Shown piece after piece: positions 39,501 to 41,684 of a stretch of 64,000 nt of DNA. Within the stretch, counting starts at the first letter, position 1. Every line of letters begins with the position of its first letter. The DNA lies in NCBI RefSeq assembly GCF_024700885.2, contig NZ_CP117016.1; one strand, given 5' to 3'. A program made the position numbers. This DNA comes from Escherichia coli (GTDB lineage Bacteria; Pseudomonadota; Gammaproteobacteria; Enterobacterales; Enterobacteriaceae).

Positions 39501-41684
39501 CTTTAATCACGGTATGCGTTCCGGCATTAAAAGATGTTCCGAAAGACACCGCAGATTCACCGTTGAAGGTTCCCGCTCCCGCTGACATCATCATAAAGTC
39601 ACCGGCTTTCACCTGTGGTTGTGAGGCGATAGCGATGGCTGATGCAGTTCCCGCATTGGCTTCTTTACGGTTGTCCTCAACTTCGTTTTTCAGCGAACTG
39701 AAATGGTTATTGAGCGTAGTAATCTGCTGGCTATTATCCGCTACTCGTTTTTGCGTGTTGCTTAACTGCTGATGCGTTTGGGTTACGTCTTGTGTCAGGC
39801 TGTCAATTTGTTCATGCGTTTGCGTTGAGTCTTGCGCCAGACGCTGAATTTGTTCCCCGTACTGCACACTATCGATATGCTGTTGTGTTGCCTGGTTAGT
39901 CGCCAGAGTATCTATTTTTTGTTTTTGTTCTGCTGCAGTACGCGCATTCGCATCATTTTGTGCTCTCAGTCCGGCGTTAACCATCTCTTGATAATGTGCG
40001 TTGGTCTGGCCATCGCCAAGTGCGGAAACCGTTTTTTGCGTCGCGTCGATTTGTTTCTGCTGATCGTCCATTTGTTGCTGCTGGGTGTCCGCTTGTTCCT
40101 GTTGCGCATTGGCAGCAGCAGTCTGTCTGGCGTCAATCATGCTCTGATATCGGGCGGCAGTCTGTACATCACCGGTGGCGGCAACGGTTTTCCGGGTTTC
40201 GTCGAGTTGTTGCTGCTGGTCAGCAATATCGCTGCGGTTCTGTTCGATATTATTTTTGTTTTCTGTCACAGCACCGGAAAGTTTGACGCCGTTCATCAGA
40301 GCGGTGTTGGCGTTAGCGCTGGCATGGTCAGCCGTTGACTGGGCATGTGCGACATCGCCTTTTATGTTGGTGACGTCTGACTGCACTGCGGAGACATCAT
40401 TACGGGTGTCGGCGATGGCGGCTTTATTGGCATCAATATCCGTCTGCGCCACCATAATGGCGTGCTGCGCGTCATCAGCTTTCATTGAAGCCCAGTTGGC
40501 GGCATGTTGTGCGTCCTGAATGGCGGTATCCTGCCCGTTGTCGCGGTCGGTCTGCGCTTGATTGGTTATCGGGTTCAGCGTATTGGTGGGCTGTACGGGA
40601 GAAGCAGCTGTATTTTCCTGAGGTGTCGTTGTCCGGTAATCATGCGCAATCAGATAATTTTGTGCGGCTGCACTATTCCCTGTCCTTTCTAAAAATCGAC
40701 CAATTTTCTGATCAATTTCCGATTGCGACATTCCTGGCTGGATTGCCGTTAATTCTGTCGTTGCCGCCTCAACAGTATCACCCGCAAACGCAGATGGACT
40801 TACGGCGGTAGCAACAACGACAGCCAGTAAAGACAGCTTTACAGTTTTCATGCATTTTTTCTCTTTCAAAGTAAGTCACATATTTGTTTCTATAAGCAAC
40901 GTAAAACGTTGTTATAAGAATTAATCTGCGTTGCAATTTGATCGAAATCTACGCCGCCATTTGTGTGATGTAAAGCGCATTTTTGTCTGGTGTAAGCGTA
41001 AACATCACCAATAAGAAACAAAAAATGTTTCTTATATAAATAAAATAGAAAATCATTTTGTGCTCTTTCAATGTAAAAAAGAGTAAAGACTTGTTTTGAT
41101 AAGCGAAATAAATTCTGTTTCTGGACTAAACGTGAAGCGGTTCCTGATGTGTGCTAAAATGCGTTTCTTTGATAAATCTCAATTTTTAAGAGGTTTACGC
41201 CAGGCAGGAAAATTTAAATGAATGAATTTGAGAAGATTTTTAATGAAATGAATCTGGACCGGGCATTGCTACCGATCCTTTTTCGTTCGAACCGGTCAAC
41301 AGTGTGGAAATATTTGAGTGGTGATAGTACGGCTCCTGCCTCAGCTATGTCACTGATTATGCTGTTGCAGTTAATCCAGAAACGAAACCCCGATCTGTTA
41401 GCCGAATGGTTAACGCTTTCTGATTTCACCATTCCGCCAGAAGTTTACCTGGACCAGCCTGATTACTGGAAAGGGTGGGTGTATACGCAACACAAGGTCA
41501 ATAAAAACGTCCTGGAATATCTAAAAAAACATTATCCGGATGAAGACCAAAAAAACATGAATAAAGGTAGTGACGAGTAATTTGCCAATGCCAGTTAATA
41601 TAGCGGAGGCGGCCTACGATTCGGGCGCAGACTTCCAGGCATGATAAGACGCGCCCGCGCCGCATCAGGCATCAGCGCATAACC

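What the first reader, a model, noticed from the sequence alone, without database searches (positions are those of the whole stretch)
40852..41580. AT-rich divergent control region with two palindromes and a 120-aa candidate regulator
The ~350-bp region between the TAA-like gene and the divergent 120-aa ORF is strongly AT-rich, suggesting foreign origin and possible H-NS targeting. It contains two well-formed inverted repeats (caacg-N5-cgttg at 40897-40911; ataagaaaca-N5-tgtttcttat at 41011-41035) that look like operator sites. The divergent small ORF is the obvious candidate for the cognate regulator, but it has no clear family signature visible to me.
Basis: inference. Interest (0 to 1): 0.45.

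Follow-up and report, generated by a model that had tools for sequence, protein, structure and literature searches.

The report
Adhesin-island control region with uncharacterised HTH regulator

Summary

- **The ORF is a real gene.** dN/dS is 0.07-0.15, it is transcribed in published RNA-seq, and it is always divergent from a surface-protein operon in several Enterobacterales.
- **It looks like a DNA-binding protein.** Sequence libraries miss it, but a confident model (pLDDT 91) has an XRE/lambda-repressor-type HTH plus a family-specific C-terminal domain.
- **The conserved cis unit is not the two palindromes.** It is a GTTTC box, best read as GTTTC-N5-GAAAC, present 5-8 times per intergenic region against about 1 expected.
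- **Palindrome 2 is two such boxes facing each other** (P about 0.01). Palindrome 1 is chance-level and specific to this allele.
- **Two divergent sigma-70 promoters are invariant across genera.** A box sits at or near each predicted start site.

The parts
39436..40851 (-). Trimeric autotransporter adhesin gene, the orthologue of O157:H7 z0639 ('gmrA'). It has an N-terminal signal peptide and a C-terminal YadA anchor.
   Evidence: ORF. Pfam YadA_anchor covers residues 412-471, full length, E=1.2e-10. PGAP calls it 'YadA-like family protein'. Primer mapping equates it with z0639/gmrA.
40852..41217 (.). 366-bp AT-rich divergent intergenic control region (GC 0.32).
   Evidence: It aligns across 10 loci from several genera, with conserved blocks.
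40946..40974 (-). Predicted sigma-70 promoter of the adhesin operon: -35 TTTACA (40974-40969), 17-bp spacer, -10 TAGATT (40951-40946). The inferred start site is near 40939.
   Evidence: Consensus scan. The GTAAAGC and TACGCC/AA..TA columns are invariant or nearly invariant in 10 loci. The start site is not mapped experimentally.
41152..41160 (+). Predicted extended -10 promoter element of z0640 (TGcTAAAAT). The inferred start site is near 41167.
   Evidence: The TG.TA..AT columns are invariant in 10 loci. The element is also present in the L015 and L023 relatives. Inference; not mapped.
40886..40900 (+). Box B1, GTTTCTATAAGCAAC. It is a perfect GTTTCTATAAGAAAC in O157:H7 and O18. It lies in the adhesin 5' leader.
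40897..40911 (.). It is allele-specific, chance-level, and overlaps B1 and B2.
   Evidence: Present in the sequence. P(arm of 6 or more)=0.75 in shuffles. Not conserved in other Escherichia alleles or other genera.
40908..40944 (+). Degenerate boxes B2 (40908-40922, GTTGT...) and B3 (40930-40944, GTTGC...). They are GTTTC in other genera and are spaced 22 bp from B1. B3 overlaps the predicted adhesin start site.
   Evidence: Alignment consensus TGTTTCTAT.AGAA...TTGTTTC. Box positions of about 35, 57 and 79 from the ATG recur in other loci.
41011..41035 (.). It is two strong half-sites facing each other: GAAAC at 41015-41019 and GTTTC at 41027-41031. These imply boxes B4 (41005-41019, minus strand) and B5 (41027-41041), with centres 22 bp apart.
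   Evidence: Perfect 10/5/10 repeat. P=0.011. The half-sites are invariant while the spacer and outer arm vary in five Escherichia alleles. Partly conserved in other genera.
41073..41087 (+). GTAAA-N5-GTAAA direct repeat, which is the CpxR-box consensus, followed by a conserved TTGTTTTG. It lies between the two promoters.
   Evidence: Exact match, one of only 2 in the 64-kb window. It is kept with at most 1 mismatch in 8 of 12 related loci, read. CpxR binding was not tested.
41117..41131 (+). Box B6, GTTTCTGGACTAAAC, at about -50 to -36 of the z0640 promoter.
   Evidence: The GTTTCT block is conserved in at least 8 of 10 loci.
41163..41177 (+). Box B7, GTTTCTTTGATAAAT, overlapping the predicted z0640 start site. 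This is the candidate autoregulatory operator.
   Evidence: CGTTTCTTTGA is the best-conserved block of the whole intergenic region (mean 0.93). It is present in L015.
41218..41580 (+). 120-aa ORF, the orthologue of O157:H7 z0640. It has an XRE-like HTH (helices 15-22 and 26-34) and a family-specific helical C-terminal domain. The RBS AGGA is at 41206-41209.
   Evidence: Primer mapping to z0640.
38728..39350 (-). Two small genes downstream of the adhesin gene on the same strand: a 139-aa lipoprotein (38928-39350, z0638) and a 66-aa protein (38728-38931). They are conserved with the module.
   Evidence: Function not examined.

Best explanation

The two units have back-to-back sigma-70 promoters about 200 bp apart. 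Their predicted start sites are near 40939 and 41167.

Host factors would set the environmental response. These may include CpxR at the conserved GTAAA-N5-GTAAA box, and H-NS on the AT-rich DNA.

What is shown: the gene structure, the fold, box enrichment, box geometry, conservation and synteny.

For: **Fold**
- The model has pLDDT 90.9.
- It matches many XRE/lambda-type DNA-binding domains over the first 50-68 residues or so: Aca2, HigA2, MqsA, P2 C and cI.
- Some family members hit Pfam Xre-like-HTH, HTH_3 or MqsA at 3e-5 to 4.5e-4.

**Real gene**
- dN/dS is 0.07-0.15.
- It is transcribed in O157:H7, and its level falls together with z0639 and z0638 on host-cell attachment (Table S3).

**Linkage**
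- In relatives down to 61% identity that could be examined it lies about 360-380 bp from, and divergent to, a YadA-anchor or surface-protein operon, at different chromosomal sites.
- The same holds at 48% identity (L015).
- At 37% identity (L023) and 41% identity (L025) it lies next to signal-peptide proteins in which no YadA anchor was detected or tested.

**Boxes**
- GTTTC/GAAAC occurs 5-8 times per intergenic region against about 1 expected. P is at most 0.004 in each of 10 loci.
- In the window, GTTTCT density in the intergenic region is about 50 times that of the rest of the window.
- An inverted GAAAC half-site is enriched specifically at spacer 5: 22 of 85 sites, against 0-6 at eleven of the twelve other spacers tried and 9 at spacer 12. 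This is the geometry of a symmetric dimer.
- Box positions are conserved, including one at the predicted z0640 start site, which is the best-conserved block of the region.
- In five Escherichia alleles the half-sites of palindrome 2 are invariant while the spacer changes.

**Possible co-variation (a single case)**
- A 41%-identical homologue with an altered recognition helix (PRATLWKYL instead of NRSTVWKYL) has TCTTCATTGG repeats at the same 22-bp spacing in place of GTTTC.

**Not an essential activator**
- In PMC5826968, deleting z0640 left motility unchanged while deleting z0639 reduced it.
- A z0639 clone carrying the whole intergenic region but no z0640 complemented the defect.
Against: - A conserved host regulator could equally explain box conservation across Enterobacterales.
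- The window protein itself has no significant Pfam, NCBIfam or PDB sequence hit.
- Most right half-sites are weak. In this allele boxes B2 and B3 are degenerate.
- The start sites are predicted, not mapped. The consensus scan found no more promoter-like sites than shuffled sequence gives (3 against 2.7), so the promoters rest on conservation.
- One relative, L016, has no adhesin gene next to it.
- More distant homologues sit in unrelated contexts.
- No phenotype of a z0640 deletion has been reported.
Confidence: 0.55

Rival explanations
1. [not shown]
For: The intergenic region is 68% A+T, which is typical of H-NS-silenced horizontally acquired DNA (established knowledge). The box pair at 41005-41041 lies about 65-100 bp upstream of the predicted adhesin start site, a common activator position. 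z0640 and z0639 mRNA rise and fall together.
Against: Deleting z0640 did not copy the motility defect of the z0639 deletion. z0639 complemented without z0640, also in K-12. Boxes lie on or downstream of both predicted start sites, which is a repressor-type placement. No H-NS data exist for this locus; the literature search found none.
Confidence: 0.2
2. [not shown]
For: TGTTTC/GAAACA resembles OmpR-type half-sites; this is from memory and was not tested against a matrix. Published z0639 mRNA levels respond to osmolarity, pH, temperature and host-cell contact. A host factor common to Enterobacterales would also explain conservation across genera.
Against: The second half-site is inverted at spacer 5. 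No direct repeat is seen at the 5-6 bp spacing that winged-helix response regulators use: 0 of 85 sites. Boxes follow the HTH gene into loci with other partner genes (L023, L016). They change where the recognition helix changes (L025). One box sits at the HTH gene's own predicted start site in nearly all loci.
Confidence: 0.15
3. The palindromes act as RNA hairpins in the adhesin leader or in an intergenic small RNA, for example in mRNA stability or thermosensing, rather than as DNA operators.
For: Palindrome 1 lies inside the predicted 88-nt adhesin 5' leader. Published expression peaks at 37 C.
Against: No Rfam family matches the intergenic region, even at E up to 1. Palindrome 1 is chance-level and not conserved. 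Palindrome 2 lies upstream of both predicted start sites. Its changes among alleles are one-sided and not compensatory, while the GAAAC/GTTTC cores stay fixed. No terminator-like T-run follows either repeat.
Confidence: 0.04
4. [not shown]
For: The best structural matches include the antitoxins HigA2 and MqsA and the anti-CRISPR-associated protein Aca2. Distant homologues lie in mobile-element-like contexts.
Against: No toxin or anti-CRISPR gene is adjacent. There are no phage hits, and the only two plasmid-collection hits are 4.9-Mb E. coli records that look like chromosomes, and no PADLOC hit. The divergent arrangement and intergenic length are kept across genera and insertion sites. Purifying selection is strong.
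Confidence: 0.06

Closest known systems
XRE / lambda-repressor-like HTH regulators that autoregulate at palindromic operators (e.g. phage P2 C, restriction-modification controller C proteins, anti-CRISPR-associated Aca2, HigA2 and MqsA antitoxins)
   Different: The window protein has no significant sequence match. The C-terminal domain matches only its own family. The partner is a surface-adhesin operon, not a toxin, anti-CRISPR, restriction or phage lysis-lysogeny gene. There are many operators spread over 300 bp rather than one or two.
OI-29 / 'GmrA' of EHEC O157:H7 (Yang et al. 2018, PMC5826968)
   Same: It is the same island at the same site (cueR|ybbJ). The window's intergenic region plus ORF is 93% identical to the O157:H7 allele. 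The paper's deletion primers map exactly onto these genes.
   Different: The paper assigns the regulatory function to z0639. By its own primers, z0639 is the gene with a signal peptide and a YadA anchor. The paper reports no motility phenotype for z0640. It did not analyse the intergenic region, and it states that control of 'gmrA' expression is unknown.
Trimeric autotransporter adhesin loci with dedicated regulators or helpers (Yersinia yadA with VirF; Salmonella sadBA) - from general knowledge
   Same: An adhesin with a YadA anchor whose expression is environmentally controlled, with small accessory genes in the operon.
   Different: Neither yadA nor sadA has, to my knowledge, a divergent XRE-like regulator. 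VirF is an AraC-type activator encoded elsewhere. SadB is a lipoprotein helper, not a regulator. No homology was tested here.

Membership tests
XRE / lambda-repressor-like HTH superfamily (for the 120-aa protein) | Compact helical domain with a helix-turn-helix and a recognition helix | tested here: met
   [not shown]
XRE / lambda-repressor-like HTH superfamily (for the 120-aa protein) | Significant match to a sequence profile of the family (Pfam HTH_3, HTH_26, HTH_31, Xre-like-HTH or MqsA) | tested here: inconclusive
   The window protein gives only MqsA_antitoxin at E=0.12. It has no NCBIfam hit. Its PDB profile match is E=0.66 to an Xre antitoxin HTH. One member each of the 24-sequence family alignment reaches Xre-like-HTH 7e-5, HTH_3 3.8e-4, HTH_26 4.5e-4 and MqsA 3e-5.
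XRE / lambda-repressor-like HTH superfamily (for the 120-aa protein) | Sequence-specific binding to a (pseudo)palindromic operator | not testable with these tools
   The evidence is indirect only: enriched 15-bp GTTTC-N5-GAAAC boxes in every cognate intergenic region.
Type II antitoxin (HigA / MqsA type) | Co-operonic toxin gene adjacent to the HTH gene | tested here: not met
   Upstream is the divergent adhesin gene. Downstream are REP elements and the convergent ybbJ. No toxin-like ORF is present, and there is no PADLOC hit.
Anti-CRISPR-associated (Aca) regulators | Located in a phage or mobile element, next to anti-CRISPR genes | tested here: not met
   There are no phage hits; the only two plasmid-collection hits are 4.9-Mb E. 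coli records that look like chromosomes. The neighbours are an adhesin operon and housekeeping genes.
[not shown]
   YadA_anchor matches full length (1-60 of 60) at the extreme C-terminus. E=1.2e-10 for the window allele and 2.6e-11 for the O157:H7 allele. The N-termini MKTVKLSLLAVVVATAVSPSAFA and MKTVNVALLALIISATSSPVVLA are read as signal peptides by eye; no predictor was run.
[not shown]
   Pfam finds only YadA_anchor above threshold. The rest are weak coiled-coil-type matches, for example AAA_13 at 0.0034 and TMF_DNA_bd at 0.16. NCBIfam gives only sub-threshold SMC/Rad50 coiled-coil hits. The published EMSA and ChIP data cannot be re-examined here.
CpxR-regulated promoter | GTAAA-N5-GTAAA tandem box near the promoter | tested here: met
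   There is an exact match at 41073-41087. It is kept with at most 1 mismatch in 8 of 12 related loci. Binding and regulation are not testable here, so this is a sequence match only.
H-NS-silenced horizontally acquired DNA | AT-rich relative to the genome, plus H-NS occupancy | tested here: inconclusive
   AT-richness is met (GC 0.29-0.38 against about 0.5-0.6). Occupancy is not testable, and no H-NS data for OI-29 were found.

The most novel reading that the evidence does not exclude
Probability: 0.4. Interest if true: 0.55.

Novelty: new member of a known kind. Interest (0 to 1): 0.45.

Why it matters
**How common the module is.** OI-29 is present in about a quarter of complete E. coli genomes (1415 of 5426). 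These include O157:H7, and the published strain list adds O55:H7, O145:H28, NMEC, UPEC and APEC lineages.

**What the literature says.** Its central gene is cited in reviews as a horizontally acquired transcription factor.

**What follows if this reading is right.**
- The analysis gives a concrete, testable model of how the adhesin operon is switched: the positions of two promoters, seven operators and a CpxR-type box. The authors list this control as unknown.
- It would prompt re-examination of how OI-29 affects motility.
- It defines a small HTH family that current profile libraries miss.

Tried and rejected
- **Sequence libraries for the 120-aa protein.** NCBIfam, PHROGs, PADLOC and a PDB sequence search gave nothing significant.
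- **First structure prediction.** With only 10 close sequences it failed (pLDDT 58). Adding distant homologues from the exhaustive search fixed it.
- **Rfam over the island.** It found only REP-derived naRNA4 matches outside the intergenic region, so the RNA-element reading was rejected.
- **Terminator reading of the palindromes.** Rejected, because no T-run follows either repeat.
- **OmpR-like tandem direct repeats.** Rejected on geometry.
- **A CRP-like site over TGTGATGTAAAGC.** Considered by eye and dropped. TGTGA is not invariant (it is TGTTA in Pseudocitrobacter) and the block coincides with the -35 element.
- **Locus searches.** The search for related loci with the broad alignment failed for lack of a conserved stretch. 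The narrower one returned only 5 loci among 100,044 species genomes.
- **More distant homologues** (L016, L017, L026, L027) gave no clear operator pattern.

Full report
**1. What is there**

The window is Escherichia coli chromosome. The stretch 38700-41800 is 100% identical to many complete genomes. It lies between cueR (38317-38724) and ybbJ, qmcA, fetAB and cnoX.

Between cueR and ybbJ sits an island with four genes:
- a 66-aa ORF (38728-38931, minus strand);
- a 139-aa lipoprotein (38928-39350, minus strand);
- a 471-aa protein with a signal peptide and a full-length C-terminal YadA anchor (39436-40851, minus strand; Pfam E=1.2e-10);
- divergently, a 120-aa ORF (41218-41580, plus strand).

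REP elements follow the 120-aa ORF (Rfam naRNA4 at 41638-41715).

The gap between the two divergent start codons is 366 bp (40852-41217) and 32% GC. 200-bp windows fall to 0.285.

- Palindrome 2 (41011-41035, perfect 10/5/10) is unusual. Only 1.1% of dinucleotide-preserving shuffles give an arm of 10 or more.
- Palindrome 1 (really CAACGT-N3-ACGTTG) is not unusual. 75% of shuffles contain an arm of 6 or more.

**2. The locus is already named: OI-29**

A literature search for the O157:H7 locus tag led to Yang et al. 2018 (PMC5826968). That paper describes the 2,643-bp O-island 29 with genes z0638, z0639 ('gmrA') and z0640.

I mapped the homology arms of their deletion primers (Table S2) onto an O157:H7 chromosome and onto the window.
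- z0638 is the lipoprotein gene.
- z0639/gmrA is the YadA-anchor gene.
- z0640 is the 120-aa ORF.

Their cloning primers confirm this. gmrA starts ATGAAAACTGTAAACGTAGCTTTA (MKTVNVAL, the signal peptide) and ends in the anchor (...GVGYSF).

The O157:H7 allele (338 aa) again shows only YadA_anchor (279-338, E=2.6e-11). The other matches are weak and coiled-coil-type, such as TMF_DNA_bd at E=0.16.

So the protein published and reviewed as a transcriptional activator that binds the fliA promoter has the architecture of a secreted trimeric autotransporter adhesin. I cannot re-examine their EMSA or ChIP data. I record the conflict.

Several points in the paper bear directly on this finding.
- z0640 is transcribed: RPKM 43.5 in DMEM, against 96 for z0639 and 20 for z0638.
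- All three genes drop to zero on HeLa attachment. This was confirmed by qRT-PCR at -5 to -11 fold (Table S3).
- z0639 mRNA depends on temperature, pH, osmolarity and host contact. The mechanism is stated to be unknown.
- Deleting z0640 did not affect motility.
- z0639 complemented from a fragment that carries the entire intergenic region but no z0640. Its F-1 primer is the reverse complement of window 41151-41170.

**3. The 120-aa protein**

It has no NCBIfam, PHROG, PADLOC or PDB sequence match. Pfam gives only a sub-threshold MqsA hit at E=0.12.

The family is very small.
- The word-indexed search found 21 clusters.
- An exhaustive profile search of 1.84 billion representatives found 24 with E below 1e-3.
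- Among 100,044 species genomes there were 5 loci.
- Every member with a named source organism is in Enterobacterales: Escherichia, Pseudocitrobacter, Symbiopectobacterium, Lelliottia, and by fold search Cronobacter, Hafnia, Pectobacterium and Ewingella.

The gene is under purifying selection: dN/dS is 0.07-0.15, with dS saturated between genera.

A model built on 10 close sequences was poor (pLDDT 58). With 24 sequences including distant members it reached pLDDT 90.9.
- The N-terminal 65 residues or so form an XRE/lambda-repressor-type HTH, with helices at 15-22 and 26-34 (recognition helix RSTVWKYLS).
- Individual family members reach Pfam Xre-like-HTH, HTH_3, HTH_26 or MqsA at 3e-5 to 4.5e-4.
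- Residues 70-115 or so form short helices that match only the family itself.

There is no neighbouring toxin or anti-CRISPR gene. There are no phage homologues, and the only two plasmid-collection hits are 4.9-Mb E. coli records that look like chromosomes.

**4. Comparative anatomy of the intergenic region**

In relatives down to 61% identity that could be examined, the gene lies about 360-380 bp from, and divergent to, a YadA-anchor operon with the same two small downstream genes. The insertion sites differ:
- cueR|ybbJ in Escherichia;
- qmcA|fetA in Pseudocitrobacter and L013;
- qmcA|cnoX in L008 and L010;
- unrelated sites in L005 and L007.

A 48%-identical homologue is divergent from two tandem YadA-anchor genes (L015).

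The 37%- and 41%-identical homologues (Lelliottia L023 and L025) are divergent from other signal-peptide proteins, in which no YadA anchor was detected or tested.

Alignment of 10 intergenic regions shows discrete footprints.

(a) On the minus strand, TTTACA-17 bp-TAGATT (40974-40946). The -35 element and the T, A, T, T positions of the -10 element are invariant. I read this as the adhesin promoter, with a start site near 40939.

(b) On the plus strand, an invariant extended -10, TGnTAnAAT (41152-41160). I read this as the z0640 promoter, with a start site near 41167.

(c) A recurring GTTTC(T) motif.

(d) GTAAA-N5-GTAAA (41073-41087), followed by TTGTTTTG.

The GTTTC/GAAAC pentamer occurs 5-8 times per intergenic region against about 1 expected. 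P is at most 0.004 in each of the 10 loci. In the window, the hexamer GTTTCT/AGAAAC occurs 5 times in the 366-bp region against 17 in the other 63.6 kb.

Across 85 sites from 14 loci, a second inverted half-site is enriched only at a 5-bp spacer. 22 sites have at least 4 of 5 matches, against 0-6 at eleven of the twelve other spacers tried and 9 at spacer 12. There is no direct repeat at 5-6 bp.

The unit is therefore a 15-bp GTTTC-N5-GAAAC pseudo-palindrome with one strong half. Examples are GTTTCTATAAGAAAC in O157:H7 and GTTTCTATTGGAAAC in L007.

Box positions are conserved.
- Three lie in the adhesin leader, 22 bp apart. In this allele B1 is at 40886, and B2 and B3 are degenerate. B3 overlaps the predicted start site.
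- A pair lies between the promoters.
- One lies at about -43 of the z0640 promoter (41117).
- One lies on the z0640 start site (41163). This is the best-conserved block of the whole region.

Two strong half-sites face each other (GAAAC 41015, GTTTC 41027), and the implied operators are centred 22 bp apart.

In five Escherichia alleles these half-sites are invariant, while the 7-bp spacer and the outer arm change on one side only. That pattern points to selection on protein-binding half-sites, not on a stem.

Palindrome 1 disappears in O157:H7, O18, E1V33 and E. whittamii. What is conserved there is box B1.

**5. Who binds the boxes?**

- the symmetric-dimer geometry of the box;
- a box at the HTH gene's own predicted start site, the classic XRE autoregulation layout;
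- the boxes follow the HTH gene into loci where no YadA anchor was found next to it (L023), or where no adhesin gene is present (L016 has GTTTCTATTGGGAAC);
- in L025, where the recognition helix begins PRAT instead of NRST, the 22-bp-spaced repeats read TCTTCATTGG instead of GTTTCYATTGG. This is a single case of apparent co-variation.

A conserved host regulator remains possible.

On the sign of regulation, the placement of boxes on and downstream of both start sites favours repression. So do the published observations that z0639 functions without z0640 and that the z0640 deletion does not copy the z0639 deletion. At the least, they exclude an essential-activator role.

The GTAAA-N5-GTAAA box matches the CpxR consensus (general knowledge). 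It is kept with at most 1 mismatch in 8 of 12 loci. The published shut-off of all three genes on host-cell attachment, together with the known NlpE-Cpx surface-sensing route (cited in PMC9387321), makes CpxR a reasonable second input. This was not tested.

H-NS binding is plausible from base composition only.

**6. Comparison and verdict**

The protein works like, and by fold belongs to, the XRE/lambda-repressor HTH superfamily. It fails the defining context tests for antitoxins and for anti-CRISPR-associated proteins. It belongs to no curated sequence family.

A divergent local HTH regulator with operators is an ordinary arrangement, so this is a new member of a known kind.

The interest lies in three things:
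- a testable map of promoters and operators for an adhesin operon present in about 26% of complete E. coli genomes;
- an HTH family that annotation pipelines miss;
- the mismatch between the published identity of 'GmrA' and its sequence.

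Noticed in passing
window 39436-40851 (and L018 3013-4029): The gene published as the transcriptional activator 'GmrA' (z0639, PMC5826968) is, by the authors' own deletion and cloning primers, the gene for a protein with a signal peptide and a YadA anchor, i.e. a trimeric autotransporter. No DNA-binding domain is detectable. The only such hit is a weak coiled-coil match, TMF_DNA_bd at E=0.16, and something similar may be what CDD flagged.
   Followed up: partly
window 40731-40851: RefSeq/PGAP annotates this allele of the adhesin gene from an internal ATG (40731; 431 aa), which drops the signal peptide. 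The ATG at 40851 (MKTVKLSLLAVVVATAVSPSAFA...) matches the start used in O157:H7 and is preceded by a conserved AGAGAAAT Shine-Dalgarno-like block.
   Followed up: partly
window 41600-41810: A cluster of REP/BIME elements sits at the right edge of the island, between z0640 and ybbJ. The Rfam naRNA4 match at 41638-41715 scores 71.9 bits, above the gathering score, and a weaker copy lies at 41738-41807.
   Followed up: no
L002-L004, L008, L010, L013 versus the window: The same four-gene module sits in different intergenic sites of one conserved neighbourhood (copA-cueR-ybbJ-qmcA-fetAB-cnoX). It is at cueR|ybbJ in Escherichia, at qmcA|fetA in Pseudocitrobacter and L013, and at qmcA|cnoX where fetAB is absent. 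No integrase or repeats that would explain the mobility were seen.
   Followed up: no
window 38728-39350: A 139-aa lipoprotein (z0638) and a 66-aa protein with overlapping stop and start codons always accompany the adhesin gene across genera. They may be export or display helpers. Only sub-threshold family hits were found.
   Followed up: no
proteins P0005, P0016, P0018 (E. coli alleles of window 41218-41580): Some E. coli strains carry z0640 alleles that are frameshifted after about residue 76. This replaces the C-terminal domain while leaving the HTH intact. P0018 stands for 14 sequences.
   Followed up: no
window 34986-38320 and upstream (L001 1-5621): Immediately upstream of cueR lies a type I secretion system (ABC permease/ATPase and a HlyD adaptor) with a giant 'BapA-related adhesin SiiEA' gene. 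Two different adhesin systems therefore flank cueR.
   Followed up: no
L015 842-4641: The 48%-identical homologue controls, or at least faces, two tandem YadA-anchor genes. These are followed by a small ParE-like ORF and the usual two small genes.
   Followed up: no
window 40822 leftwards (versus 52): The intergenic region plus z0640 is present in 1415 of 5426 complete E. coli genomes. Only 319 carry this adhesin allele over most of its length. Similarity among alleles breaks inside the signal-peptide codons, which suggests recombinational replacement of the passenger domain downstream of a conserved control region.
   Followed up: partly
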